DNA of 64,000 nucleotides from Nitrosopumilus sp. (lineage in GTDB: Archaea; Thermoproteota; Nitrososphaeria; Nitrososphaerales; Nitrosopumilaceae): contig OZ240211.1 in NCBI GenBank assembly GCA_965197525.1, positions 2,146,165 to 2,210,164 of the forward strand, read 5' to 3'. Under the pieces are notes generated by a model. It was not told where the DNA came from. It worked only from the letters and a program-made list of their open reading frames with translations, and did no database searches. A program made the translations under genes and the position numbers. Positions 9,542 to 61,381 of this stretch are shown here, piece after piece (the stretch's first letter is position 1; each line of letters begins with the position of its first letter).

Positions 9542-9901
9542 GGTTCTGTCTAATAAATGGGAATATAGCGTAAAAATTATTTTATATAAAATCACTTTTT
9601 TAGTTTTGAAAAGAAGACAAATCATATTAGACACATTCACATTGCAGGAAAAAGAGACGGAGATAACAACAACAAGATGGGGCGTCTAAACGGTGAGATA
9701 AGAGATTGTGAAAAAGTGTTTAGAGGTCTAAAAAAGTTTGATACGCCTCTTATTGATGGCATGAAAACATATTACAATTTCACAAAGAAACACGGGTCTT
9801 TGAAAGGAAAGACACCAGCAGAAGAAGCTATTGATTCAGAATGCGAGTTTGCACAAGCAAAATTCAGAATCAAATTTAGGTCTCTATAATCCGACAGAAC
9901 C
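9542..9901 (+). mobile_element. Internally deleted IS6-like element (MITE-sized) retaining the transposase C-terminus
   Basis: Ends GGTTCTGTCTAATAA (9542) and TAATCCGACAGAACC (9887-9901); fragment DNNNKMGRLNGEIRD..YYNF..HGSLKGKTPAE; no TSD seen. Confidence 0.7.
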
Positions 9902-10159: not shown

Positions 10160-13028
10160 ATGACTAAACGTAGCATCTCTTTTACTCTTGGCAGCCTGTT
10201 CATGCTGTCTGCGGCAATAATCTTTCTTAACTTGGGGTTGTTTGCATCAGGCACGGATTTGATAGAAGATGGCCAACATACCCACACCTTAAATTTTGTA
10301 AATATTGCACATGCCCAATCAGACGAACGTATGGAATCTGAAACCTATCCATCACCTGCAAAGCAGCTGAAAGACGGTGTCAACATACATGACATCCAAT
10401 GTAACGACTCGCGAGAACTTTACATTCGACAATCACAAATGCCTGTCTGTCTTTATGATGAGACATTTAATTCTATGCAAGGCAGAGGTATAGAACTTAC
10501 ACCTGCAACTCCATCATCACTGTCATCAATTGATATATTTACGCCCGAAGAGACACAATGGCTGGCAGACAATCCTGTCATACGCGTCTCCTTTGATCCC
10601 GGATGGACGCCAATAGAGTACGCTGACGAATCCGGCAACCTTCAGGGCATTACTTTGGACTACATTGCAGAGTTTGAGGAAATCTCAGGTGCAGACCTGG
10701 CACCAGTCCCTGCAGCAGATACGTGGGCTGATGCATTAATGGCAATCGAGGAGAGAAACGCAGACATCATGTACATGGTAGCCTCCACGCCTGAAAGGCT
10801 GGAATACATGAGCTTTACATCGCCACACTCGCCACACTACGGTCAAGACTTCTATGGTGTCCCTGAGTAACACCCCTCTGAATATTGACGATGAGGGACT
10901 TAGACTTGCCACAATTAACGGCTACGCAATAGAATCGTGGCTTGATGAGAATTATCCTGATACAGAGTACGTCTCAGTAAACAATTTTGCCGAGGCCTTT
11001 GATCTTCTTGCAGTAGGCGGTGCTGATGCGTTTGCCAGCACGTGGCAGGTAGCTGTCCACCATGCAAAGATGTCCGGGGTCGGCAATGTGTACAATGCAG
11101 GCACTACAGGACACCAGTACGATCTTACCGTGGGGTACAGAAACGACATGCCTGTTCTGGGATCCATAATGCAAAAGGTCTTGGATCAGATTCCACAGGA
11201 AAAGATTGACAGTTGGTATGATGTGTCCACATCCACCGACGACATATACACATCCGAAGAGGTGCAATGGCTGGCAGACAATCCTGTCATACGCGTCTCC
11301 TTTGATCCCGGATGGACGCCAATAGAGTACGCTGACGAATCCGGCAACCTTCAGGGCATTACTTTGGACTACATTGCAGAGTTTGAGGAAATCTCAGGTG
11401 CAGACCTGGCACCAGTCCCTGCAGCAGATACGTGGGCTGATGCATTAATGGCAATCGAGGAGAGAAACGCAGACATCATGTACATGGTAGCCTCCACGCC
11501 TGAAAGGCTGGAATACATGAGCTTTACATCGCCACACTATACGGTCAAGACTTCTATGGTGTCCCTGAGTAACACCCCTCTGAATATTGACGATGAGGGA
11601 CTTAGACTTGCCACAATTAACGGCTACGCAATAGAATCGTGGCTTGATGAGAATTATCCTGATACAGAGTACGTCTCAGTAAACAATTTTGCCGAGGCCT
11701 TTGATCTTCTTGCAGCAGGCGGTGCTGATGCGTTTGCCAGCACGTGGCAGGTAGCTGTCCACCATGCAAAGATGTCCGGGGTCGGCAATGTGTACAATGC
11801 AGGCACTACAGGACACCAGTACGATCTTACCGTGGGGTACAGAAACGACATGCCTGTTCTGGGATCCATAATGCAAAAGGTCTTGGATCAGATTCCACAG
11901 GAAAAGATTGACAGTTGGTATGATGTGTCCACATCCACCGACGACATATACACATCCGAAGAGGTGCAATGGCTGGCAGACAATCCTGTCATACGCGTCT
12001 CCTTTGATCCCGGATGGACGCCAATAGAGTACGCTGACGAATCCGGCAACCTTCAGGGCATTACTTTGGACTACATTGCAGAGTTTGAGGAAATCTCAGG
12101 TGCAGACCTGGCACCAGTCCCTGCAGCAGATACGTGGGCTGATGCATTAATGGCAATCGAGGAGAGAAACGCAGACATCATGTACATGGTAGCCTCCACG
12201 CCTGAAAGGCTGGAATACATGAGCTTTACATCGCCACACTATACGGTCAAAACCACCTTGGTGTCGCTAAATGACACCCCTTTGAGCATGGATGAGGAAC
12301 TTAGACTTGCCACAATTAACGGCTACGCAATAGAATCGTGGCTTGATGAGAATTATCCTGATACAGAGTACGTCTCAGTAAACAATTTTGCCGAGGCCTT
12401 TGATCTTCTTGCAGCAGGCGGTGCTGATGCGTTTGCCAGCACGTGGCAGGTAGCTGTCCACCATGCAAAGATGTCCGGGGTCGGCAATGTGTACAATGCA
12501 GGCACTACAGGACACCAGTACGATCTTACCGTGGGGTACAGAAACGACATGCCTGTTCTGGGATCCATAATGCAAAATACACTGGATCATATCCCTCAGG
12601 AAAGGATTGATTACTGGTATGATGCAGTAGCACAGACAACAGACGACACGGCCGAACTGGAATCAACTGTAATGGGGGTCGTTGACGATACCATCGCACT
12701 GTACAACTCCGATCCCTCAAGCGCCTTTGAGAAGATTACCTCTATGGAGTTGACCAATCCGCATTATCCATTTGTTCTTGATCCTCTTACCGCCACAGTT
12801 GTGGCACACGGCTCATTTCCTGAACGTGTAGGCGAAACTTCCATAGCCCTTACCGAGTCAACCACACCGCTTGAGGAGATTCTCTCTAGTCTGCAGAAAG
12901 ACGGCGATAGCATATGGGCAGAATACCTGTTTACAAATCCCTCGACTGGAACAGAACAGCTAAAGCGGTCGCTGTATGTGTTGCATGACGGTTACATAAT
13001 CGGATCCGGATACTATACATCGTCTTAA
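10160..13028 (+). pseudogene. Exported protein with three tandem solute-binding (PBP type 2, BvgS/EvgS-like) domains and a C-terminal single Cache domain, frameshifted near 10830
   Basis: N-terminal hydrophobic segment; WLADNPVIRVSFDPGWTPIEY three times; YPFVLD..VAHG..WAEY..NP..HDGYIIGSGYY Cache pattern; CGCCACACT duplicated at 10821-10838, net +7 nt. Confidence 0.8.
10556..12575. repeat. Three near-identical tandem units of about 702 bp (starts 10556, 11265, 11967)
   Basis: Offsets of 709 and 702 bp read from the sequence. Confidence 0.95.
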
Positions 13029-15440: not shown

Positions 15441-15515
15441 GGACTCGTTGCATAGCTTGGATAGTGCGATTGCTTGCGGAGCAATAGGTCGCCGGTTCGA
15501 ATCCGGTCGGGTCCG
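15441..15515 (+). tRNA. tRNA-Arg(GCG)
   Basis: Acceptor GGACTCG/CGGGTCC-G, anticodon arm ATTGC-TTGCGGA-GCAAT, T-arm GCCGG-TTCGAAT-CCGGT. Confidence 0.95.
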
Positions 15516-15859
15516 CTTTTTCTTTTTCTTTGTAACTGTGATCCTATAGTATTCCAAGAATCTATGTATTGCGTATAACTATCCTGCCATGATGTTATTT
15601 GCGTGGTTTACTTTTGTTTCAAACTATCTGCAGTCGAATTTTAACTTGAACGGGATGTTTGATTCCGGGTAAAAGTCTTGGTCATCCTTTCTTATGTACT
15701 AGTACCTACGTTTTACATCTGGCCAATTCAAAGGCGAGTACTCGTCCATCCCTCATGTATCGTATTACGCTAGTGGTTTTCTTTGTTCAAAATATTTGAG
15801 CACTGTTTTTGTAGGACTTTGATATTTAGTCTGTCCAATACGTCAATAAGTGCATGGGC

Positions 15860-16246
15860 TTACGGATCCAGTCTCTTTTTGACTCTGCTAACGATTCTTT
15901 CTGCCCACTTTACAGAGTCTTGGGCATCCTTTGGTTCCATGAGATCTGGCTGGTACTCTGCTGCATTCTTTTTGTCTATTAATGAGGTAAACTGTCTCTT
16001 GATCTCACGGTACTCCTGCGGGGAAAATATCCCCTTGACAAGTGACAGCGCCTGGGTGTGGTCATCTGAGGCGCGCCTTCCCTTGTACGATGTGGTCAGC
16101 GCATCCAGTGCACTGATGGCACTGTGCACGGCACCAGTCACTGCGCTGTTGTACTTTGCATTCTGTGCTGCAAGCTTGGCCACCTCCAAAAACTCCTCTG
16201 ATTTTGTGAGATAGTTTGTCGCCTCACTGGGATCAACGTCTCTCAT
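15860..16246 (-). CDS. HEPN-domain toxin (MNT-HEPN pair)
   Basis: AEEFL..AK..YNSAV..AVHSAISALDAL..DH pattern; ATGA-coupled to the upstream MNT gene. Confidence 0.85.
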   Translation of the reverse strand: MRDVDPSEATNYLTKSEEFLEVAKLAAQNAKYNSAVTGAVHSAISALDALTTSYKGRRASDDHTQALSLVKGIFSPQEYREIKRQFTSLIDKKNAAEYQPDLMEPKDAQDSVKWAERIVSRVKKRLDP

Positions 16247-16848: not shown

Positions 16849-17033
16849 GTATGGTAAATAATATTTCCATATGGTATTAATGTTTTCCATATTGATGTTT
16901 TAAACTATCTCAAAAACAAGACAATCAACTAAGATATGGAAGTGTCTTATTATAGGCATGTTCCAGATAATGAACAATCTGTGATATTATTATGGTTTTA
17001 CTGATATTTGTTGGAGTGGATCCTCTTTTGCAG

Positions 17034-17287
17034 CCCATAAAATGAGAACGTTTTTTGCATGATCATCCATACAGTCTCCCTCATTTATTCTTCATCTCCC
17101 ACTGCGATGCAAATTCTACAGGCGTCATGTATCCTATGGCAGAGTGAATTCTTTCTTGGTTGCAGTCTGCAAAAGCGTCTACCAGGATCTTTTCGGCCTC
17201 CTGATAACTAGCAAATTCATGCGCAGCCACAAGTATTCTTTTTTGAGAGTCTTGTGGAACGATTCCACATGACCGTTCTGTTCCACT
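17034..17287 (-). mobile_element. Partial duplicate of the 3' end of the IS3-family element
   Basis: Near-identical to 17731-17975. Confidence 0.85.
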
Positions 17288-17776
17288 ATACATGCAGCAG
17301 GGACATCGTACTATGCAAGATATTTCTGCGTCTCATACCGGTCCGACCCTTCTGCCATACCGCGCGTAGTTAGTTGGGATTAACTTGCAGTGAAGAAAAA
17401 ATTTACATACGTTCTTAAGCGTTGTTCCTGTGAGTGTTTGTTGTGTGCGTCCCTTCATTTGTGGATATCTGAAGGGATTTCACACTGTATGTTATTAAGA
17501 GACGGTATCAATTACGTTTGAATTACAGCTAAACTGATCGTAAGGCACGCACATGCAGGATTGATCAGATCGTGTTGATTACCCATTCACGCATCTGTTG
17601 TAGGAACTTTTTCTAGAAAGTGTCCGGATCTTTAATCAGAATAGTATGCATGTGGTATTATAGGCATGTTCCAGATAATGAACAATCTGTGATATTATTA
17701 TGGTTTTACTGATATTTGTTGGAGTGGACCCCATAAAATGAGAACGTTTTTTGCATGATCATCCATACAGTCTCCC

Positions 17777-18619
17777 TCATTTATTCTTCATCTCCCACTG
17801 CGATGCAAATTCTACAGGCGTCATGTATCCTATGGCAGAGTGAATTCTTTCTTGGTTGCAGTCTGCAAAAGCGTCTACCAGGATCTTTTCGGCCTCCTGA
17901 TAACTAGCAAATTCATGCGGCCACAAGTATTCTTTTTTGAGAGTCTTGTGGAACGATTCCACATGACCGTTCTGTTCGGGTGTGTGCTTCCAGATGAACT
18001 CGTGTTTTATGCCAAATACCGATACTTCTTTTCTAAAATCATTACTGGTGTACTGCGTGCCGTTGTCGGTTCTAAGTCTAAGTCTGGAGCAGTCAGGATT
18101 CTCTACATACACGGCATTTGTTATGGAGTCAATTGCCACTTGTTTTGTGGCATCTACGTCAAACGCATACGATATCCATCTACGCGTAAAGCAGTCCACC
18201 ACGTTAAAGCAATAGCACCATCCGTCCATCCCACACCAGACGTACGTCATGTCCGTCTCCCATAGCCGGTTCGGTGCATCCGGTTCGAAGAGCTTGCGAT
18301 TGGTGTGAATGATGTCGTTTTTTGTCTTTTGAGGCTCAATCCCGCCCAGTTTTCGGAATATTCTTTGTATCTTCTTGCGATTTGTGGCAGTGTGTGTCTC
18401 GCAGCACACTTGGGCTGCCATGCGGCGTGTGCCATAGGTGGGTCTTCTGCTGCCTATCCTCTGCACTGCCTGTACGGCTGCCGGATCCAATCTCATCTCC
18501 CTTGCCTTGGGTTTGTGATACCACATACGTCTTGACACTCCGGCATAGCGTAGTGATTTACGCAGGCTCATCTTTTCATACAGTTCTCTGACGGCACTCA
18601 ATCTCTGGCTTCCTCCCAA
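17777..18619 (-). CDS. IS3 OrfB (DDE integrase core)
   Basis: WETDMTY, RTDNGTQY, QNGHVESFHKTLKKE motifs. Confidence 0.92.
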   Translation of the reverse strand: MGGSQRLSAVRELYEKMSLRKSLRYAGVSRRMWYHKPKAREMRLDPAAVQAVQRIGSRRPTYGTRRMAAQVCCETHTATNRKKIQRIFRKLGGIEPQKTKNDIIHTNRKLFEPDAPNRLWETDMTYVWCGMDGWCYCFNVVDCFTRRWISYAFDVDATKQVAIDSITNAVYVENPDCSRLRLRTDNGTQYTSNDFRKEVSVFGIKHEFIWKHTPEQNGHVESFHKTLKKEYLWPHEFASYQEAEKILVDAFADCNQERIHSAIGYMTPVEFASQWEMKNK

Positions 18620-23623: not shown

Positions 23624-24076
23624 ATGGGATACCATTGTATGAAGTCAGGTTCCGATATGCTTCTGGCCAGGATACTGGACGCCCCCGTGGGCCAGGTGGT
23701 CACCGTCCTAGGGGAGGTCCTTGACTGTGCTGTCCAGCTGCAGGTGGTGGAGCAGAACGCCGTTGCGCCCAATCAGTTCGTAAGGAAGGTCGTGATTACC
23801 GCGCGGGGGCTGCCTGTCATAAAGGCAAGCGTGAAGTTTGACTCCGCCGTGCTGCCTGAGTCCGTCATGGGCGAGCTTCTGAGGAAGAAGCGCGGCATCG
23901 GAACCATTCTCAACGTCAATGACATCGTCGCAACCAGAAGGATCATGTCCCTGGACCTGCATCCGGACCAAGGCATAACCTTGAGGGAGTACGAACTCGT
24001 TCACGGTGGGGCCGTGTGGTTTACCATATTTGAGGAGATAAACCTAGACAGTCTTGGTTCCGACAAGCACGGCTGA
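23624..24076 (+). CDS. Chorismate pyruvate-lyase/UTRA-fold-like protein
   Basis: R.VVI..GLPVI.A.V.F..GIG.IL..REY..I.EEI pattern. Confidence 0.55.
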   Translation: MGYHCMKSGSDMLLARILDAPVGQVVTVLGEVLDCAVQLQVVEQNAVAPNQFVRKVVITARGLPVIKASVKFDSAVLPESVMGELLRKKRGIGTILNVNDIVATRRIMSLDLHPDQGITLREYELVHGGAVWFTIFEEINLDSLGSDKHG

Positions 24077-24727
24077 AGAGCCCCACGTCAGATCCTGCCT
24101 GCGGGTTTCCAGTCCGTGATCTTCCATGGCCTCCTCGTACTCCTGCACCCAGTTTGAGGCCCTTATCAGGCGGGGCAGGTCGGCGAAGACCTGTCTCCAA
24201 CCTGGGGTGAAAAGGCCCGCGAGATTCAGCAGCCTGAAATAAAAATCCCACATTCTGCGCACCGGGCCGGCCTTTGGATATGTAAAGTCATGCAGAATTA
24301 TCTTCCCGCCGGCATCGAGGTGGTCAAGGCAGCTCCTGATCAGGGTATCTGGCGTGCAGTATTTTGGCAGGTATGACGCAGTGATGCAGGAGAACTTTTC
24401 CCCTAGGCTGAGCTTTTCGGCATCCTGATTTACAAAGGAGATGTTCCGGTGCGGGGCCGACTTCTCCATGGCCTTCTCAAGGTACCCTTGGGTAACGTCG
24501 ACGCCCACTATCTCCGCGTCCGGCAGCGTTTTTGCAATCTGTCTCGTAAGGATGCCCGTACCGCAGGCAAGATCCAACACGTTTTTTTCATCAGACATGT
24601 GCTCCAGAATCTTACGTTTCCAAAGGCCGTCCTTGCCAAAGGTGGTCCAGCTGACTATCCTGTCATACGAGCTGGCGTTGCTGTTAAAAAATTTCGGGAC
24701 CATGCACTTCGGACTCTCTTCGGCCAT
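24044..24727 (-). CDS. UbiE/MenG-like class I methyltransferase
   Basis: FFNSNASSYDRI..W..VLDLACGTG..GGKIILHDF. Confidence 0.85.
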   Translation of the reverse strand: MAEESPKCMVPKFFNSNASSYDRIVSWTTFGKDGLWKRKILEHMSDEKNVLDLACGTGILTRQIAKTLPDAEIVGVDVTQGYLEKAMEKSAPHRNISFVNQDAEKLSLGEKFSCITASYLPKYCTPDTLIRSCLDHLDAGGKIILHDFTYPKAGPVRRMWDFYFRLLNLAGLFTPGWRQVFADLPRLIRASNWVQEYEEAMEDHGLETRRQDLTWGSSAVLVGTKTV

Positions 24728-24791
24728 GCTTACTGCTGGTTTTTTTGTCTAAAATAGTTTGTGAGTAGGGGTTCTGTGAAGTTATCGAGGG

Positions 24792-25985
24792 TTAACCCCT
24801 ATAACTTGACTTTGACATATCGACTATTCGGATTACCAATGGTGTGCCGGGTTCCGTCATCGCTGGCTCAAAAGTGCCAGACTGCGCTTCATCTATGTCA
24901 TCTCTACTACCCCTAAACCTAGGGGGCAGCTTGCGTGATATGTTCATGGCAGCGATAATATCCCTGTCCATAAACAAACCGCAATTATTACACGACATTT
25001 TACGATGTTGTTGCATGTCCTCTTGGAGTCTCTTTCCGCATTTCGGACACTGCGTGCTCGTGTTTCTTGGGTCTACTGTCTCGACTGGAGGCAACCCGAC
25101 CCATTGGGCTTTGTATTCTATTTGGCGTTGTAACTCGTAGAATTGCCACCCGTTCAATCTACGCCTGTACTTGTTACCTTGACTGTTTCCTTTTCGGTAC
25201 AATTTTCTTATTCCTTTCAGGTTTTCCATGACGATTGCAGTCTTGTTTTTGACTGCGTTGTCTACTATATCCTTTGAGATTCTGTGGATGTACTGCTTTG
25301 TTCTATTGCTCATTCGTCTCTGTCTTTGTTTCCAGAATTGACCTTTCTTTCTGCGATCATTTCTGTGGAATCCTGCCCTAGCGTGTATTGTGTTCTCCTT
25401 TATGGATAACAGTTTGTTTGTCTTGTAGACTGTCACCTCTTTCTCGTTCCCACACGTCACATTTCTTAGGTTTCTGTCTATTCCCACTTGATTGGTGCAC
25501 TCTATCTCTTGTACTGTTTTTGAAACACAAAGACTGATGTTGAGAGCAGTCAATGAAAACGAGCGCACCGTCAAGGCGGGATCAGATAGGATTTTTTGGG
25601 TGTGAACGTTGAGTAAAATGTTGATTGGGTTATGTTTCTTGTATGGGATTGTGAGTAGTGCACCGCTGTGTTGTATACCGTAACAGTTTGTCATAAAGGG
25701 ATTTTTGACTATTGGGTCTCTTATTCTGACACCTCGTTTGATTGATTGTCTTCTGTTTGATAACATGCCTGCAGCTCGTGATATTGCATTTAGTTTGTAT
25801 GAAGACAGGATGTCATAATTACGTAATTCATGATAACATAATATGGACAACCTCTTCATATTGTGAGTGTCTTCTTTCAATCCTGTCTTGATGCAATGAT
25901 TGACCATCTTTGTGAATATAGCCATCATATCCATTAGATCAGAGTTCGGCGTATATTTCTGTGATATTGACTTTATCGCTTTCAA
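24792..25985 (-). CDS. tnpB: TnpB RNA-guided endonuclease
   Basis: RuvC GIDRN, VMENL, MDRDIIAAMNI; Zn finger CPKC..CNNC; stop codon lies within the TIR. Confidence 0.95.
   Translation of the reverse strand: MKAIKSISQKYTPNSDLMDMMAIFTKMVNHCIKTGLKEDTHNMKRLSILCYHELRNYDILSSYKLNAISRAAGMLSNRRQSIKRGVRIRDPIVKNPFMTNCYGIQHSGALLTIPYKKHNPINILLNVHTQKILSDPALTVRSFSLTALNISLCVSKTVQEIECTNQVGIDRNLRNVTCGNEKEVTVYKTNKLLSIKENTIHARAGFHRNDRRKKGQFWKQRQRRMSNRTKQYIHRISKDIVDNAVKNKTAIVMENLKGIRKLYRKGNSQGNKYRRRLNGWQFYELQRQIEYKAQWVGLPPVETVDPRNTSTQCPKCGKRLQEDMQQHRKMSCNNCGLFMDRDIIAAMNISRKLPPRFRGSRDDIDEAQSGTFEPAMTEPGTPLVIRIVDMSKSSYRG
24795..24945 (-). ncRNA. Candidate omegaRNA scaffold overlapping the tnpB 3' end
   Basis: Conserved with 61135-61265; covarying hairpin CTGGC/GCCAG versus CCGGT/ACCGG. 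Confidence 0.6.
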
Positions 25986-26171
25986 CGAATATCTTACGGT
26001 TTAGAGGTTTATACAATTTAGGGATTAACAGATAACCCTCGATAACTTCACAGAACCTGAGTAGGCAACTTGGCAAACGGCAAGACCGTGCTGGAGAAAA
26101 ACACAGACTGATAAAGTGGGCGGATCCTGAGATCCCTGGAAACAGAGGCAGGATCACACCCCATAGTGAAA

Positions 26172-33726: not shown

Positions 33727-33772
33727 GGAACCTGAAAATGCCTCGTTATCAAGTCAAATCCGGTCGGGTCCG
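33727..33772 (+). repeat. att-like end motif copy F with an exact tRNA-Arg tail (attR-like)
   Basis: GGAACCTGAAAATGCCTCGTTATCAAGTCA followed by AATCCGGTCGGGTCCG. Confidence 0.88.
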
Positions 33773-34144
33773 CTTTTTCTTTTTCTTTGTAACTGTGATC
33801 CTGTAGTATTCTAAGAATCTATGTATTGCGTATAACTATCCTGCCATGATGTTATTTGCGTGGTTTACTTTTGTTTCAAACTATCTGCAGTCGAATTTTA
33901 ACTTGAACGGGATGTTTGATTCCTGGGAAAAGTCTTGATCATCCTTTCTTATGTACTAGTACCTACGTTTTGCATCTGGCCAATTCAAAGGCGAGTACTC
34001 GTCCATCCCTCATGCATCGTATTACGCTAGTGGTTTTCTTTGTTCAAAATATTTGAGCACTGTTTTTGTAGGACTTTGATATTTAGTCTGTCCAATACGT
34101 CAATAAGTGCATGGGCTTACGGATCCAGTCTCTTTTTGACTCTG

Positions 34145-34501
34145 CTAACGATTCTTTCTGCCCATTTTACAATCTTGGGCATCCTTTGGTTCCATGAGAT
34201 CTGGCTGGTACTCTGCTGCATTCTTTTTGTCTATTAATGAGGTAAACTGTCTCTTGATCTCACGGTACTCCTGCGGGGAAAATATCCCCTTGACAAGTGA
34301 CAGCGCCTGGGTGTGGTCATCTGAGGCGCGCCTTCCCTTGTACGATGTGGTCAGCGCATCCAGTGCACTGATGGCACTGTGCACGGCACCAGTCACTGCG
34401 CTGTTGTACTTTGCATTCTGTGCTGCAAGCTTGGCCATCTCCAATAACTCCTCTGATTTTGTGGGATAGTTTGTCGCCTCACTGGGATCAACGTCTCTCA
34501 T
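34145..34501 (-). pseudogene. HEPN toxin copy 2 with a frameshifted C-terminus
   Basis: 2-nt loss near 34170 replaces DSVKWAERIV.. with DCKMGRKNR. Confidence 0.8.
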
Positions 34502-35103: not shown

Positions 35104-35470
35104 GTATGGTAAATAATATTTCCATATGGTATTAATGTTTTCCATATTGATGTTTTAAACTATCTGCATGTGGTATTATAGGCATGTTTCAGATAATGAA
35201 CAATCTGTGATATTATTATGGTTTTACTGATATTCGTCTTTTAATACCTCTTGGGAAAAACCAAACCGTATTGCAATGTCTGACAGGTTCTGCATGCGCA
35301 GCATGTATGCGTCGTTACAGCTTCCAGGAATCTCCTAGCAGAGTCCCGCCTTTGTAATCATGGACATGATGACAGGTCCCGCTAACCTCTTACAACGATC
35401 CTATGACACTTTTTCAAGATGCCTGCCATGGTACCTAAACCACACAAAGACAAGTCAAATTCTATTACTC

Positions 35471-40739: not shown

Positions 40740-40998
40740 AACACCCTCGTCGTAGTCTAGGTGGTGGATCTACGCCTAGACAAAGATGTGCTTAGTGCAC
40801 TTTATCCTGAATGGGTCAACCGATCTACTGTGTTCCAGTGCCTCACACACTGACAAGTGATTGCAATCTCCAATCCATCAGAAGTAATTCACACGGAGAT
40901 GTTGAAAAGGATGAGTGATGTCAGTAAGAAGAGATGCATAGCATTCATAATGAATGACAAGGGAAAGATACTGGAAGATAATATGTATGATAACACAC
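40740..40998 (+). mobile_element. IS110-like remnant: noncoding leader plus N-terminal fragment
   Basis: DVSKKRCIAFIMNDKGKIL resembles the DEDD RuvC-fold start; leader hairpin GTCTAGG/CCTAGAC at 40755-40781. Confidence 0.5.
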
Positions 40999-41144
40999 TG
41001 GTAGATACCTTCGTAGATTACAACCACGAAAGAATTCATTCTGTCATATGATGCACAACACCTGTATAGTTTGCATCACAGTGGGAGACGAAGAATAAAT
41101 GAGACCGTATGGATGATCATGCAAAAAGTGTTCTCATTTTATGG
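40999..41144 (+). mobile_element. IS3-family 3' end remnant
   Basis: Reverse-complement similarity to 17731-17885. Confidence 0.75.
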
Positions 41145-41217
41145 AATCTCCTCTAAACATCACCTGATAAATTCTATAGTTTGTCAAGGTCTATTCACAC
41201 AGTGTATCAAATATTAT

Positions 41218-44478: not shown

Positions 44479-44628
44479 CCGATAAGGTCTTTGGGTAAAT
44501 TGGAACAAAACCTATGCAAAGATATGTCATAATTGTAATTCAGATCCGTATAGATGGATTCTGTAATGTTATGTTGATATAAAGTCTAGAGATTCTATCA
44601 CGCAGTAAGAGGCTAGGTCTCCCTACGA

Positions 44629-46396: not shown

Positions 46397-47733
46397 TGTT
46401 AATTATCCAACATAAACTGCTATACATAGTAAGCGACAAAAAATTGTGTTTATTTTTCCAGCGAGATCACAAGTAGCATAAAACTAGAAATTGTAATTAG
46501 TTAGGATCAAAACAGATTTTCATGACTTTCAAATACGGTTAATTCATCTCCAATAGTAACATACTCAAATATTTCACCCCAGATAACAAACCACAATAAT
46601 GGATTAATCCAAACGCAAAGAAGTGTTAGAGTGTGTGTAAGTGTAATTACTTTAAATAAATTATCAGAGATATTACAATGATGGGTTGTTTTTGATGTTG
46701 TGAGATTTTGCAGTCGTTTTAGAGTTTGTGGGTAGACTACCTATCTTTTTTGGTTGGTTTGGTACTGGTTTTTTTGGTTGATGATAATGTACGGACTTTT
46801 CTAGTGGGTTTAGTGACAGAATCTTTGACTTCTTTAGGAATCAGAGTTTTAGAACCATCTGTAGAACGTCTTGAACTTCTATCAAAAAATGCTTTTCGTA
46901 ATAGGTTATCTATGTACGCTCTTTTTAAGGATTTTCTGGATTTTAGTATGTTCGAGTACAACATCAGATAGGAATAGTGTTTCGCCAAGAAGATGGTTGG
47001 GCACATACCTATACGAACCCTATCACTCAGTACTATTCTTCACCCATTCATTATGGTTAATTGCAGTTAGGTTTCTGAACACGAAAACTAACGTATGTAC
47101 GAAGCAAACAAAGATACACCAGAAGCTTGTAACAGTCGGAGGAAAGATCATGTTCGGCACAATAATGACGTGCATGCTCACGTGGGACAATCATGAATTG
47201 AATTGGTTCAAAAAACTGATAGAAACGTTCTGGGCGACCTAACCTTCTACAACCCGACAACATAAAAAGTTATTACTTGTTTGCTTTGTATAAAATACAT
47301 TCATGAAAAAGAAGATAACCTCCGAATGCTAGGTAGATTCGAATGGGGCAGAAATGACTGTTATTACACACTCTGTATATGACGAATCAACCTCAAGCAG
47401 GGTTGACGATGTGTTCACTTTTCAAAAAGAACTCCTAACTGATCCTCCAGGCGTGAGCTATAATTGTATAAAATACGAAAAGAACAAATCCCGATAATGT
47501 TACAGAACCCTTTTTAGTACAATTTAAGTAGTCTGTAAATAATATAAAAGTATGAACAGAGGAGAACAAACAATACAGACTCCACATGTGTATCAGATTG
47601 TCTTGGTAAAGGATGAGGATGGTCGTGTAGTAGTTACATGTCCCGAACTCCTTGGCATGGTTACGGATGGCATCAATGAACATGAGGCAAAGAAGAACGC
47701 ACGATATGCGATTTCAGACATGCTGGATTCATT

Positions 47734-54229: not shown

Positions 54230-54469
54230 ATGGAATATCCTGTATCTGTTGACAAAAATGGGATAAATATGAAACCCGAAAAGATGGAAAAAGAGCGACT
54301 TTATCACTGTATCTTTAAAGATAAGGTAATGTTGATCTTCAAGGATTCTCAGGATGTATTAAACTGCTATGAGATTGAAGAGCCGGATTTAGTTGAAAAG
54401 ATCAAAAAATGTGTAGATGATGTTGATCTTGAGCCGATTTTTGAAGATTATTTGAAGGGAAATACCTGA
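54230..54469 (+). CDS. Hypothetical protein
   Basis: 79-aa ATG ORF. Confidence 0.7.
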   Translation: MEYPVSVDKNGINMKPEKMEKERLYHCIFKDKVMLIFKDSQDVLNCYEIEEPDLVEKIKKCVDDVDLEPIFEDYLKGNT

Positions 54470-54514
54470 AAAATTAAATAAAAGCAGCGGCTAAATCTAA
54501 TAACGGTAAATAAA

Positions 54515-56152
54515 TTGAACGAGGCAAAAAGACGTAAAGACGCAGAAGATATTTTAGGCGAATTTAATTCTCGTACTAAATCTACAACCCCCGAACCCGT
54601 TGAAGAACCAACACCCGAACCCACTACTGAAACTATTCCAGAACCAACACCCGAACCCACTACTGAAACTATTCCAGAACCAACACCCGAACCTGTTACT
54701 GAAACTATTCCAGAACCAACACCCGAACCCGTTGAAGAACCAACACCCGAACCCACTACTGAAACTATTCCAGAACCAACACCCGAACCCGTTACTGAAA
54801 CTATTCCAGAACCAACACCCGAACCCGTTGAAGAACCAACACCCGAACCCACTACTGAAACTATTCCAGAGCCAACACCCGAACCTGTTACTGAAACTAT
54901 TCCAGAACCAACACCTGAACCAGTTGAAGAACCAACACCCGAACCCACTACTGAAACTATTCCAGAACCAACACCCGAACCCACTACTGAAACTATTCCA
55001 GAACCAACACCCGAACCCACTACTGAAACTATTCCAGAACCAACACCTGAACCAGTTGAAGAACCAACACCCAAACCAGTTGAAGAACCAACACCCGAAC
55101 CCACTACTGAAACTATTCCAGAACCAACACCCGAACCCACTACTGAAACTATTCCAGAACCAACACCCGAACCCGTTGAAGAACCAACACCCGAACCCAC
55201 TACTGAAACTATTCCAGAACCAACACCCGAACCCACTACTGAAACTATTCCAGAACCAACACCCGAACCCACTACTGAAACTATTCCAGAACCAACACCC
55301 GAACCCACTACTGAAACTATTCCAGAACCAACACCCGAACCCACTACTGAAACTATTCCAGAACCAACACCTGAACCAGTTGAAGAACCAACACCCGAAC
55401 CCACTACTGAAACTATTCCAGAGCCAACACCCGAACCCACTACTGAAACTATTCCAGAACCAACACCCGAACCCACTACTGAAACTATTCCAGAACCAAC
55501 ACCTGAACCAGTTGAAGAACCAACACCCGAACCCACTACTGAAACTATTCCAGAACCAACACCTGAACCAGTTGAAGAACCAACACCCGAACCCACTACT
55601 GAAACTATTCCAGAACCAACACCCGAACCCGTTGAAGAACCAACACCCGAACCCACTACTGAAACTATTCCAGAACCAACACCCGAACCCGTTGAAGAAC
55701 CAACACCCGAACCCACTACTGAAACTATTCCAGAACCAACACCCGAACCCACTACTGAAACTATTCCAGAACCAACACCTGAACCAGTTGAAGAACCAAC
55801 ACCCGAACCCACTACTGAAACTATTCCAGAACCAACACCTGAACCAGAAACTTCTGATTCAACTACTAGCACACCTACAAAAGAACGCAATGTAATTTTC
55901 ATAGGTAGTAAGCCCATCTTGGCATATGTTTCTGCAACATTGACCCAACTCGCAACTCTTCCTACTGTTACACTAAAGGCAAGAGGCAGAAAAATTACAC
56001 AAGCTGTTGATGTTTCTCAAATGATTCTTAAACGCATGGATTCCGTAGGCTATGTTATTACAGATGTGAGAATTTCATCTGACTCTTTAATTTCCCAAGA
56101 TGGTAAAAAACGCAATGTCTCTATAATGGAAATTGATATTTCAAAAAATTAG
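54515..56152 (+). CDS. Alba DNA/RNA-binding protein with about 420 aa of Pro/Glu/Thr repeats at the N-terminus
   Basis: C-terminal [32 protein letters not shown] is the Alba signature. Confidence 0.85.
54590..55847. repeat. Coding minisatellite of mixed 36-bp ([12 protein letters not shown]) and 24-bp (PEPVEEPT) units
   Basis: Read directly from the sequence. Confidence 0.97.
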
Positions 56153-59853: not shown

Positions 59854-60024
59854 ATGCTGTATCATTTCGAACTACAAATGGCAGGCGTTATTCTTCTTAC
59901 CGCTATGGTAGTTTGTGGTATTTCAATATGGATTAGACGACGGAGAGCTGAAAATAACCCGCAAACGTCATTAAACGAACCTAGTGACCAGCCGTCATCT
60001 GATACAACTGGTTCGTTGGATTAA
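59854..60024 (+). CDS. Small membrane protein whose last codons are replaced by the TnpB element
   Basis: MLYHFELQMAGVILLTAMVVCGISIWIRRRR..DTT; the empty-site frame would end DTTNR*. Confidence 0.55.
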   Translation: MLYHFELQMAGVILLTAMVVCGISIWIRRRRAENNPQTSLNEPSDQPSSDTTGSLD

Positions 60025-61340
60025 CTGGTGTTAATCAGAAATTATACTCATAACACTAAATATAGATAGCCTTAAACCGTATAATACTTGTTGAGAGCAA
60101 TAAAGTCAATAGCACAAAAACATACACCAAACTCTGACCTAATGGACATGATGATCACGTTCACAGACATGGTTAACCGTTGTATCAAGATAGGGCTAAA
60201 GGAAGATACCCACAACATGAAACGGTTGTCTATGTTATGCTATCACGAATTACGTCACTACGACATCCTATCTTCATACAAACTCAATGCAATATCACGA
60301 GCTGCTGGCATCCTGGCAAACAGAGATCAGTCAGTCAAACGTGGCCTCAAAGTAAAAGATCCAATTATCAAAAATCCGTTTATCACTAATTGTTACCGTA
60401 TAAAACACAACGGCGCCTTACTCACAATTCCATACAAGCCAAGAAATCCAATTAACATCCTACTCGACGAACATACTCAAAAAATACTGTCTGATCCCGC
60501 CTTGGCAGTGCGCTCGTTTTCATTGACTGCTCTCAACATCAGTCTTTGTATTTCAAAAAAAGTACAGGAGATAGAGTGCGCCAAGACAGTAGGAGTAGAC
60601 AGAAACCTTAGAAACGTCACATGCGGAAATGAAGAAGAGGTAACATTCTACAAAACCAACAAGTTACTCTCAATCAAAGAGAACACAATACATGCCAGAT
60701 CTGGTTTCCGTAGAAACGACAAAAGAAAGAAAGGTCAATTCTACAACGAAAAACAGAGAAGAATGTCAAACAGAACAAAACAGTACATACACAGAATCTC
60801 AAAAAACATAGTAGACAATGCAGTCAAGAAAAAGGCTGTCATTGTTCTAGAAAATCTAAAGGGAATTAGAAAACTGTACAGAAAAGGAAACGGTCAAGGC
60901 AACAAATACAGACGTAGATTGAACGGATGGCAATTCTTTGAACTACAAAGACAAATAGAATACAAAGCCCAATGGGTCGGGCTACCTGTAAAAACAGTAG
61001 ACCCAAAAAACACGAGCACGCAGTGTCCGCAATGCGGAAAGAGACTCCAAGAGGACATGCAACAACATCGTAAATCATCGTGTAATAATTGCGGTTTATT
61101 TATGGACAGGGATATCATCGCTGCCATGAACATATCACGCAAACTGTCTCCTAGGTTTAGAGATAGTAGAGATGGCATACATGAAGCGCAGTCCGGTGTT
61201 TTTGAACCGGCGATGGCGGAACCCTGCAGACCGGTAATCCGAATAGTCGATATGTCAAAGTCGAGTAGTCAATGTGTTGTTGATGGTTGTGGAATCTGAC
61301 ATGATCCTCCGCAGTCAACACCCGCTAACCCAACAGAACC
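60010..61340 (+). mobile_element. Second TnpB-only element with TIRs of about 15 bp and an 8-bp TSD
   Basis: GGTTC-GTTGGATTA at 60010-60023 versus TAACCCAACAGAACC at 61326-61340; ATACAACT at 60002-60009 and 61341-61348. Confidence 0.9.
60088..61299 (+). CDS. tnpB: TnpB RNA-guided endonuclease, paralog of 24792-25985
   Basis: GVDRN, VLENL, MDRDIIAAMNI; CPQC..CNNC. Confidence 0.95.
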   Translation: MLRAIKSIAQKHTPNSDLMDMMITFTDMVNRCIKIGLKEDTHNMKRLSMLCYHELRHYDILSSYKLNAISRAAGILANRDQSVKRGLKVKDPIIKNPFITNCYRIKHNGALLTIPYKPRNPINILLDEHTQKILSDPALAVRSFSLTALNISLCISKKVQEIECAKTVGVDRNLRNVTCGNEEEVTFYKTNKLLSIKENTIHARSGFRRNDKRKKGQFYNEKQRRMSNRTKQYIHRISKNIVDNAVKKKAVIVLENLKGIRKLYRKGNGQGNKYRRRLNGWQFFELQRQIEYKAQWVGLPVKTVDPKNTSTQCPQCGKRLQEDMQQHRKSSCNNCGLFMDRDIIAAMNISRKLSPRFRDSRDGIHEAQSGVFEPAMAEPCRPVIRIVDMSKSSSQCVVDGCGI

Positions 61341-61381
61341 ATACAACTAATAGATAAAATACTTGATGATTCGTATATTAT

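What the first reader, a model, noticed from the sequence alone, without database searches (positions are those of the whole stretch)
24762..26065. TnpB packaged in IS6-type terminal inverted repeats with an 8-bp target duplication
Seen: perfect 25-bp TIRs (GGTTCTGTGAAGTTATCGAGGGTTA) and TSD TGAGTAGG enclose only a tnpB with intact RuvC D-E-D and Zn finger; its stop codon lies in the TIR. Known: IS200/IS605 and IS607 elements have no TIRs and make no TSD, whereas IS6-family members (IS257/IS431, ISS1, IS1216) start GGTTCTGT and duplicate 8 bp. Inference: a non-autonomous element in which an RNA-guided nuclease is moved in trans by an IS6-like DDE transposase. A second independent insertion at 60010 shows this is a family. 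Broad TnpB surveys may already list DDE associations, so novelty needs a literature check.
Basis: partly seen in the sequence, partly recalled or inferred. Interest (0 to 1): 0.92.

Follow-up and report, generated by a model that had tools for sequence, protein, structure and literature searches.

The report
TnpB element with IS6-like ends
A 1.3-kb mobile element in a Nitrosopumilus-type archaeon carries only the RNA-guided nuclease TnpB and its guide-RNA scaffold between IS6-like transposon ends, and every intact copy sits next to a one-sided TTA/TTG motif, which suggests the nuclease decides where borrowed-transposase insertions persist.

Summary
Window 24770-26057 is a 1288-bp element with perfect 25-bp inverted ends, an exact 8-bp duplication (TGAGTAGG) and one gene, an intact tnpB whose stop codon lies in the end repeat. 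A second, 80%-identical member lies at 60010-61340 with its own 8-bp duplication.

The complete 2.21-Mb genome holds about 50 copies or guide-RNA-only miniatures. It has no Y1 or serine TnpA. It does have IS6-like DDE transposase elements with the same GGTTCTGT termini and 8-bp duplications, so mobilisation in trans is well supported but inferred.

- A structured RNA with compensatory changes overlaps the tnpB 3' end.
- The three bases just outside the duplication on the tnpB-5' side read [T/A]T[A/G] in 33 of 36 copies, against 8 of 34 on the other side and 5 of 28 ends of transposase-bearing relatives. This is where a TAM must lie if the guide is read from the flank beyond the right end.

TnpB in DDE transposons, including solo copies moved in trans, was published in 2023. 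The IS6-like partner and the one-sided motif were not in the papers I could read. Earlier notes of this scan already recorded this family in this genome and in other archaea. Verdict: a new variant of a known kind.

The parts
24770..26057 (-). TnpB element copy 1 (subfamily A), 1288 bp. The right end (tnpB 3' side) is at 24770 and the left end at 26057.
   Evidence: It is 94-100% identical to 15 other copies in the genome.
24770..24794 (+). Terminal inverted repeat at the right end of the element. It contains the tnpB stop codon at 24792-24794.
26033..26057 (-). Terminal inverted repeat at the left end of the element.
24762..24769 (.). 8-bp target-site duplication, right-end copy (TGAGTAGG on +). 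It would form the first 8 nt of the guide if the guide is read from the flank.
   Evidence: Relatives G002 and G018 carry the same flank through this octamer with no element.
26058..26065 (.). 8-bp target-site duplication, left-end copy.
26066..26068 (-). TAM-like trinucleotide TTG (CAA on +), directly outside the left-end duplication.
   Evidence: The position reads [T/A]T[A/G] in 33/36 left ends and 29/29 pooled copies with exact duplications.
24792..25985 (-). tnpB, 397 aa, with intact RuvC D170/E254/D342 and a CxxC...CxxC zinc finger.
   Evidence: dN/dS is about 0.09 between subfamilies.
24809..24967 (-). Conserved structured RNA (omegaRNA-like scaffold) overlapping the tnpB 3' end. The invariant core lies at 24808-24836 and the invariant hairpin loop at about 24914-24921.
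   Evidence: Of 37 pairs, 15 show compensatory change, against 5.4 +/- 1.5 in shuffles.
60010..61340 (+). TnpB element copy 2 (subfamily B), 1331 bp. tnpB lies at 60088-61299, the conserved RNA core at about 61234-61262, and the duplication ATACAACT at 60002-60009 and 61341-61348. The upstream trinucleotide CTG lies at 59999-60001.
9542..9901 (+). Remnant of an IS6-like DDE element. It holds a C-terminal transposase fragment (about 9605-9829) and one recognisable GGTTCTGT end at 9901.

Best explanation
This is a non-autonomous transposon family that consists of an RNA-guided nuclease module (tnpB plus an omegaRNA-like scaffold) placed between IS6-like inverted ends.

Inferred: it is moved in trans by zinc-finger IS6-like DDE transposases encoded elsewhere in the genome, which make the 8-bp duplication.

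Shown: the RNA scaffold overlaps the tnpB 3' end.

Inferred: the scaffold runs on through the right inverted repeat, so the guide is transcribed from the flanking DNA and begins with the 8-bp duplication.

Shown: intact copies lie with a [T/A]T[A/G] motif directly outside the duplication on the tnpB-5' side. The unoccupied or precisely vacated site therefore reads TAM-like motif + octamer + right flank, which is a target for that copy's own guide.

Inferred: TnpB cuts such empty alleles, and repair from an occupied chromosome copy restores or spreads the element. Only insertions that happen to land beside the motif are retained or reach high frequency. Miniature derivatives that keep only the ends and the RNA part use both proteins in trans.
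For: Ends and duplication:
- The ends are perfect and the duplication exact, far beyond chance.
- There are 25 such pairs in the genome, 22 of which hold tnpB or its remnant.

Mobility without a TnpA:
- Sixteen copies are at least 94% identical and about 20 more are 76-86% identical.
- The single-contig, 99%-complete genome has no Y1 TnpA or serine recombinase.

Partner transposase:
- The 1970-bp element at genome 746475-748444 has 29/30 inverted ends starting GGTTCTGT and an 8-bp duplication.
- It encodes a 378-aa transposase that matches Pfam DDE_Tnp_IS240 above cut-off. Its best NCBIfam match is IS6.
- tnpB subfamily C shares about 19 terminal bases with it.
- A related genome has a transposase-linked end of the window's own end type.

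RNA:
- A 29-nt core is invariant in 50 places, including miniatures whose ORF is destroyed.
- The consensus structure is 96.5% paired, with 15 compensatory pairs; 0 of 500 shuffles reach this and slid controls give 4 or fewer.

Motif:
- NTR occurs at 33/36 left-end flanks against 8/34 right-end flanks (Fisher 4.6e-9), with a genome background of 14.5%.
- It occurs in 29/29 pooled copies with exact duplications, including two other genomes.
- It occurs in 6/7 distant relatives at 37-50% aa identity.
- It occurs at only 5/28 ends of transposase-bearing IS6-like elements.

Selection on TnpB:
- Median dN/dS is 0.089, and 24/26 full copies keep all catalytic and zinc motifs.

The closest solved relatives are Cas12f-type and TnpB nucleases. 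From my own knowledge, several of these use TTTR/NTTR-type motifs.
Against: - No transposase-bearing element in this genome has the exact end sequence of subfamily A.
- The transposase scores below NCBIfam's IS6 cut-off.
- I obtained no clean empty-site allele. Relatives share only the left flank here, other regions are only about 70% identical, and there is no paralogous empty site.
- The RNA ends are unmapped. Only assembled contigs were available, so transcription and the guide position are not shown.
- A variable spacer of 8-85 nt lies between the conserved RNA core and the right end. The predicted hairpin that bridges it did not clearly beat shuffled controls.
- Classical IS6 elements move by replicative cointegration without excision (PMC7986276). 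Restorative homing would then bring little benefit, so why essentially all retained copies show the motif is not explained quantitatively.
Confidence: 0.7

Rival explanations
1. The element is moved by the DDE transposase as proposed, but the one-sided TTR motif is a target preference of the transpososome assembled on these particular ends. TnpB and its RNA would play no part in site choice or retention.
For: The motif directly abuts the duplication, where transposase target preferences usually lie. A weaker A at -7 (20/29) lies outside the usual reach of a TAM.
Against: Transposase-bearing IS6-like elements from six genomes show the motif at background level (5/28 ends). DDE target preferences are normally symmetric, whereas here the other side is at 8/34. 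The side is set by the orientation of the RNA module even in miniatures that lack tnpB, including the 208-bp one. Strong purifying selection on tnpB implies it matters to the element.
Confidence: 0.13
2. TnpB acts at the insertion step. Bound near the transpososome, it recognises the TTR motif in target DNA and steers DDE integration to the adjacent 8 bp, serving as a target selector without guide pairing.
For: The association of intact insertions with the motif is near-absolute even among very young copies at 97-100% identity. Post-insertion selection has to work hard to achieve that.
Against: There is no precedent. A TAM-bound TnpB would occupy the very DNA that is cut for integration. The genome is probably a population consensus, which by itself filters for insertions that reached high frequency. 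Nothing in the sequence distinguishes this reading from retention.
Confidence: 0.1
3. The element is a composite. An IS1341-type tnpB unit once inserted into an IS6-derived miniature, the guide is a fixed internal sequence next to the conserved RNA core, and the outer ends merely carry it along.
For: A conserved RNA core is followed by a variable spacer before the end repeat. Miniatures with the same ends exist.
Against: The miniatures are deletion derivatives of the tnpB element, not empty hosts. A fixed internal guide would not predict a TAM-like motif outside the element that abuts the duplication. The tnpB stop codon lies inside the end repeat, and the layout is kept in relatives at 37-50% identity.
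Confidence: 0.05
4. It is an ordinary IS200/IS605-type (IS1341-group) element moved by a Y1 TnpA through hairpin ends, and the inverted repeats and duplications are incidental.
For: tnpB-only elements are usually filed this way.
Against: The complete genome has no Y1 or serine TnpA. At least 22 copies have exact 8-bp duplications at the same end positions. The same holds in other genomes.
Confidence: 0.02

Closest known systems
DDE-transposase-associated TnpB branches (DDE-1 to DDE-6) and solo TnpBs with matching ends, Altae-Tran et al. 2023 (PMC10691335)
   Same: tnpB lies inside elements with inverted terminal repeats. The tnpB 3' end is close to a transposon end. Solo tnpB copies are proposed to be moved in trans, and the elements appear active.
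   Different: A 2026 review (PMC13565253) names the partners of those branches as ISL2, IS630 and IS1031, not IS6. The paper's supplementary tables were not readable here, so overlap with one of the six branches cannot be excluded. A one-sided motif outside a variable 8-bp duplication is not described in the text I read.
IS6/IS26 family insertion sequences (IS26, IS257; longer zinc-finger members of clade h), Varani et al. 2021 (PMC7986276)
   Same: Both make an 8-bp duplication and have short inverted ends starting GG. Both encode a DDE transposase with an IS240-type core. Miniature derivatives exist in both. From memory, several family members start GGTTCTGTTGCAAA, and some ends here read GGTTCTGTTGCA.
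   Different: Classical members are 0.7-0.9 kb with a 213-254 aa transposase. The review lists a single member with a passenger gene and none with tnpB. The transposase here is 378 aa with extra N-terminal zinc motifs, scores below NCBIfam's IS6 cut-off, and sits in elements of 1.6-3.7 kb.
IS200/IS605 family, IS1341 group (tnpB only), and the TnpB homing model (ISDra2, IS608)
   Same: Same nuclease family. The omegaRNA overlaps the tnpB 3' end, the guide is taken from the flank beyond the right end, and the TAM lies at the left-end junction of the empty site.
   Different: Those elements have no inverted repeats and make no duplication. They are moved by a Y1 transposase that itself inserts next to the TAM sequence. 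Here the insertion chemistry does not supply the motif.
Fanzor nucleases in eukaryotic DDE transposons (Mariner/Tc1, hAT and others)
   Same: A TnpB-type nuclease rides in transposons that have inverted repeats and duplications and use DDE transposases.
   Different: According to PMC13565253, the fixed 5' duplication (such as TA) there forms part of the TAM, and the 3' duplication lies in the RNA scaffold. Here the duplication is variable. The motif lies outside it, and the 3' copy would be the first 8 nt of the guide.
PATEs and other RNA-only derivatives of IS200/IS605 elements
   Same: These are protein-less miniatures that keep the ends and the RNA part.
   Different: The miniatures here have IS6-like ends and 8-bp duplications, and they obey the same one-sided motif rule.

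Membership tests
TnpB (RNA-guided nuclease, OMEGA system) | Sequence membership in curated TnpB models | tested here: met
   NCBIfam NF040570 guided_TnpB scores 127.6 bits against a 100-bit cut-off. Pfam Cas12f1-like_TNB scores 75 bits against 26.3.
TnpB (RNA-guided nuclease, OMEGA system) | RuvC D-E-D catalytic triad and zinc finger | tested here: met
   D170, E254 and D342 are present. E and the last D align to Cas12f/TnpB chains, and CPKCG/CNNCG are present. 24/26 full copies in the genome keep them all.
TnpB (RNA-guided nuclease, OMEGA system) | Structured omegaRNA overlapping the tnpB 3' end | tested here: met
   RNAalifold and pair counts give 37 pairs, 96.5% paired, with 15 compensatory; 0/500 shuffles reach this. 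No Rfam family matched. Transcription is not shown.
TnpB (RNA-guided nuclease, OMEGA system) | Guide taken from the flank beyond the right end; TAM 5' of the target in the empty site | tested here: inconclusive
   A one-sided [T/A]T[A/G] motif lies exactly where a TAM is required. However, the RNA 3' end and any cleavage are untested (one search gave contigs only).
IS6/IS26 family | 8-bp target-site duplication | tested here: met
   The duplication is exact at both window copies. At least 22 further copies and transposase-bearing elements have it.
IS6/IS26 family | Short terminal inverted repeats starting GG | tested here: met
   The ends start GGTTCTGT and the repeats are 22-30 bp. Likeness to the IS257/ISS1 ends rests on memory only.
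IS6/IS26 family | IS6-type DDE transposase | tested here: inconclusive
   The partner transposase's best NCBIfam model is IS6 at 102.8 bits, covering 1-199/202 of the model but below the 125-bit cut-off. Pfam DDE_Tnp_IS240 scores 42 bits, above its 27-bit cut-off. The element itself encodes no transposase.
IS6/IS26 family | Replicative cointegrate pathway | not testable with these tools
   Swapped duplications between two inverted copies in a related genome (L040/L043) fit either replicative inversion or plain recombination.
IS200/IS605 family (IS1341 group) | No inverted repeats and no target duplication; hairpin ends acted on by a Y1 TnpA | tested here: not met
   The element has 25-bp inverted repeats and 8-bp duplications. 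PF01797 is not found in the complete genome.
IS607 family | Serine-recombinase TnpA; no inverted repeats or duplication | tested here: not met
   PF00239 is not found in the genome. Inverted repeats and duplications are present.

The most novel reading that the evidence does not exclude
TnpB is coupled to DDE transposition at the level of site choice. The nuclease's TAM recognition, with or without its RNA, determines where an IS6-like transpososome integrates. The terminal bases of the inverted repeat would serve both as the transposase site and as the pseudoknot strand of the omegaRNA just before the guide. That would make this a natural nuclease-assisted DDE transposon distinct from CRISPR-associated transposons.
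Probability: 0.1. Interest if true: 0.9.

Novelty: new variant of a known kind. Interest (0 to 1): 0.62.

Why it matters
TnpB is thought to pay its way by restoring transposons that excise without a scar. A 2026 review therefore treats its rare association with DDE transposons as a puzzle. This family gives that puzzle a concrete and abundant test case.

- The ends are IS6-like and the 8-bp duplication is variable, so the duplication cannot itself be the TAM.
- Even so, a one-sided TTR motif sits beside every intact insertion, in several genera.
- tnpB is under strong purifying selection, although it is not needed for the cut-and-join chemistry.

If the motif is the TAM, nuclease function shapes which DDE insertions survive. 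That can be tested directly with a TAM screen, small-RNA mapping and transposition assays with and without TnpB. The compact 397-aa nuclease, with an implied short TAM, is also an ordinary candidate for characterisation as a small editor.

Tried and rejected
- Rfam gave no match in the element.
- Empty sites in relatives: G002 and G018 match the left flank at 97-98% up to and including the octamer, then diverge. This is not a clean empty site.
- Two 20-kb regions holding six elements are only about 65-78% identical to these relatives. Synteny suggests the elements are absent there, but no base-level junction could be read.
- No paralogous empty site exists in the genome.
- Public runs: only assembled contigs were available. 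The window's organism is at about 9x in the best run, where a relative at about 1490x dominates. No contig bridges an empty site. One contig joins the two end repeats with only a 20-nt side, and I set it aside as uninformative. A sponge metatranscriptome has contigs on tnpB, but this does not show transcription.
- The right-end hairpin, in which the inner repeat pairs with the sequence after the RNA core, looked to covary by eye. It did not clearly beat controls: cognate against non-cognate duplex energy was -9.7 against -8.0, and paired bases were 12.1 against 9.8 in shuffles, with the left end folding as well. I treat it as suggestive only. The 5' arm could equally be a subterminal transposase site.
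- Pseudoknot between the invariant loop GGUUU and the repeat tip GAACC: one compensatory case (L127), one kept by a wobble pair (L128) and one lineage not compensated (L129/L136). That is too few cases to claim it.
- A promoter (TATA/BRE) reading of the motif is rejected. G is as common as A at -1, the octamer downstream is not AT-rich, and the protein-less miniatures obey the rule too.
- Searches for transposase-bearing elements often failed to find both ends within the fetched flanks. Only 14 elements with exact duplications entered the control.
- Supplementary tables of PMC10691335 are not held. PMC1847376 is not held.
Full report
**1. The observation**

- The octamer TGAGTAGG abuts both ends, at 24762-24769 and 26058-26065.
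- The only long ORF between the repeats is 24792-25985 on the minus strand, 397 aa. It is a TnpB: Pfam Cas12f1-like_TNB at 4.9e-21 and NCBIfam guided_TnpB at 127.6 bits against a 100-bit cut-off.
- Its stop codon is the innermost triplet of the repeat.
- D170, E254, D342 and the two CxxC pairs are present. The last two acidic residues align to the catalytic residues of solved Cas12f and TnpB chains.
- The second insertion is real. It spans 60010-61340 with tnpB at 60088-61299 and is about 80% identical in DNA. Its end repeats differ after the first eight bases, and it has its own exact octamer, ATACAACT, on both sides.

**2. The family in this genome**

The window is the last 64 kb of a single-contig genome of 2,210,164 bp, 99% complete. 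Close relatives of the TnpB lie in records named Nitrosopumilus and Thaumarchaeota, one of them from a sponge bin.

- Sixteen copies are at least 94% identical to the window's element. About twenty more are 76-86% identical.
- A script that pairs GGTTCTGT with ACAGAACC and asks for an 8-bp duplication found 25 elements.
  - The tnpB elements are 1280-1450 bp.
  - The miniatures are 208-851 bp.
  - Two transposase-bearing elements were also found.
- A tblastn catalogue found 49 tnpB loci or remnants. Of these, 22 have a duplication matching at 7 or 8 of 8 positions.
- The miniatures are internal deletions. They keep 60-100 bp of the left end and the last 270-345 bp of the element.

**3. What moves it**

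Neither a Y1 transposase (PF01797) nor a serine recombinase (PF00239) is found in the genome, although the control genomes ring for both.

Eight places match the IS240-type DDE domain. The clearest is genome 746475-748444:
- It is 1970 bp, with 29 of 30 terminal bases inverted, starting GGTTCTGT, and the duplication CTATTGTG.
- It encodes a 378-aa protein.
- The protein matches Pfam DDE_Tnp_IS240 above cut-off.
- Its best NCBIfam model is IS6, covering the whole model at 102.8 bits. This is below the curated 125-bit cut-off. IS1 is second at 61 bits, and an IS1/IS1595-type zinc domain lies at the N-terminus.

Further points on the partner:
- Paralogues at 89%, 43%, 43%, 37% and 28% identity exist in the genome. 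Those whose ends could be read also start GGTTCTGT.
- tnpB subfamily C shares about 19 terminal bases with the 1970-bp element.
- No transposase-bearing element here has the exact ends of the window's subfamily A. In the related genome that holds twelve A-type copies, however, one transposase remnant is linked to an end of that type.
- This transposase type is common in the family, in 54 of 121 genomes searched. The TnpB type was found in 12 of 121 genomes and 7 of 27 genera.

Mobilisation in trans by an IS6-like DDE enzyme is therefore the only mechanism consistent with the anatomy. It remains inferred.

**4. The RNA**

- A 29-nt block near the tnpB stop is invariant at 50 places in the genome, including miniatures in which the reading frame is broken.
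- Sixteen diverse 159-nt segments ending at this block, drawn from four genomes, give a consensus structure of 37 pairs. In that structure 96.5% of cells are paired and 15 pairs show changes on both sides. Shuffles give 5.4 +/- 1.5, with 0 of 500 reaching the observed value. Sliding the partners gives at most 4.
- This is what an omegaRNA scaffold overlapping the 3' end of tnpB looks like. No Rfam family matches.
- Between the block and the right repeat lies a spacer of 8 to about 85 nt that differs among subfamilies.
- Folding suggests the spacer and the inner half of the repeat form a hairpin, but my controls did not separate this clearly from chance.
- An invariant hairpin loop, GGUUU, could pair with the repeat tip GAACC that directly precedes the flank. 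This would resemble the 3' pseudoknot of prokaryotic omegaRNAs mentioned in PMC13565253. One relative with AGTTCTGT ends has AGUUU in that loop, but another lineage is not compensated. I leave this as an idea.

**5. The one-sided motif**

I oriented every element by tnpB and aligned the flanks. I did this before opening the scan's earlier notes.

- In the 22 copies whose duplication matches at 7-8 of 8 positions, the base two positions outside the left-end octamer is T in 22 of 22, and the base next to the octamer is A or G in 22 of 22. The third base out is T or A in all 22.
- Over all left ends the NTR pattern holds in 33 of 36. The three exceptions have lost their duplication. At right ends it holds in 8 of 34 (Fisher 4.6e-9). 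The genome background is 14.5%, or 15.9% in the local flanks.
- The pattern holds in the related genomes, in the window's second copy (CTG), and in six of seven distant relatives at 37-50% protein identity from other genera.
- It also holds in the 208-bp miniature, whose RNA part lies on the other strand.
- Pooled over 29 copies with exact duplications, the pattern is T 29/29, R 29/29 and W 29/29, with a weaker A at -7.
- As a control, fourteen transposase-bearing IS6-like elements with exact duplications, from six genomes, show NTR at 5 of 28 ends and on neither side preferentially.

So the motif goes with the nuclease/RNA module, not with the transposase. It is also exactly placed. In the unoccupied site it directly precedes the octamer and the right flank. 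That is the sequence a guide would carry if it starts at the first base after the right repeat. The solved relatives closest to this TnpB are Cas12f-type enzymes. From my own knowledge, several of those read TTTR or NTTR.

**6. How it most likely works**

*Shown:* the ends, the duplications, the copy number, the absence of TnpA, the presence of IS6-like transposases with matching termini, the conserved structured RNA, the one-sided motif, and strong purifying selection on tnpB. Median dN/dS is 0.089 over 218 pairs, and 24 of 26 full copies are catalytically intact.

*Inferred:* the transposase inserts the element with little site preference. The element's RNA then reads its guide from the new flank. 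Where TTR happens to precede the octamer, TnpB can cut any empty copy of that site, whether on a sister chromosome, in a recombining population, or after precise loss across the duplication. Repair from an occupied copy then restores or spreads the element. Copies at other sites are not protected and do not reach the frequency at which an assembly records them.

*Open:* classical IS6 elements copy themselves without excising (PMC7986276), and PMC13565253 argues that restorative homing helps only elements that excise. The size of the effect, essentially every retained copy, is therefore not explained. A role of TnpB at the insertion step cannot be excluded.

**7. Comparison with what is known**

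- Altae-Tran et al. 2023 (PMC10691335) describe six DDE-associated TnpB branches with inverted terminal repeats. They also describe solo TnpBs with the same ends, which they interpret as moved in trans.
- The 2026 review names the partners as ISL2, IS630 and IS1031.
- The IS6 review lists one passenger-carrying member and no tnpB.
- Full-text searches for TnpB with "IS6 family" or with Nitrosopumilus found nothing relevant.
- The element is not an IS200/IS605 or IS607 member, because defining features of both were tested and not met.
- It works like a TnpB/omegaRNA element whose carrier has been exchanged for IS6-like ends.
- It differs from Fanzor-bearing DDE transposons. There the fixed duplication is part of the TAM (PMC13565253). 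Here the duplication is variable and the motif lies outside it.

**8. Earlier notes of this scan**

- The same family was already followed up elsewhere in this genome.
- Similar elements were noted in Asgard, Bathyarchaeia, Nitrososphaera and sponge-symbiont genomes.
- Two of those notes mention a one-sided TTG/TTA motif, and one mentions AANYMTTW.
- My tests here agree with them and add three things: the transposase-bearing control, the count across subfamilies and genera, and the RNA covariation statistics.

**Verdict.** It is a new variant of a known kind.

Noticed in passing
L032:178-535 (genome 921863-922220, outside the window): About 50 tandem copies of the heptamer GGTTCTT lie directly upstream of an IS6-like transposase paralogue. 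The unit resembles the first bases of the transposon ends.
   Followed up: no
L040 and L043 (related genome, 126 kb apart, inverted): Two tnpB elements carry each other's flanking octamers (TAGAAACT/TTATGTTA and the reverse). This is the signature of an inversion between two copies, produced either by recombination or by replicative intramolecular transposition.
   Followed up: partly
window 23800-24769: The methyltransferase-like gene left of the element is 97-98% identical to two same-genus genomes that are otherwise only about 65-78% identical in the two 20-kb regions compared. In the best public run that relative's version stands at about 1490x, against about 9x for the window's own right flank. 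Beyond the octamer the relatives continue with unrelated GC-rich sequence.
   Followed up: partly
window 54461-55600: A long array with 12-nt periodicity gives 66 overlapping repeat registers. It is probably a repetitive coding region.
   Followed up: no
window 10532-12533: Three tandem units of about 700 bp are 85-99% identical.
   Followed up: no
window 15497-16217 and 33754-34472; also 16943-17977, 35169-35249 and 40989-41156: These are further dispersed repeats at 97-99% identity, unrelated to the tnpB element. They probably belong to another mobile element family.
   Followed up: no
window 38715 (+), 47509 (-), 8922 (-): Solo GGTTCTGT-type ends have no clear partner. The end at 47509 pairs weakly (17/24) with a degenerate end at 44557.
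   Followed up: partly
genome 2002312 and 701182 (L037, L033): A tRNA T-arm-like string (GGTTCAAATCCCAC) lies next to two IS6-like transposase genes, inside or at the edge of their elements.
   Followed up: no
L159, L161, L170, L176 (other genomes): Transposase-bearing IS6-like elements with exact 8-bp duplications are 2.7-3.7 kb long. That is far longer than the transposase gene, so they probably carry passenger genes.
   Followed up: no
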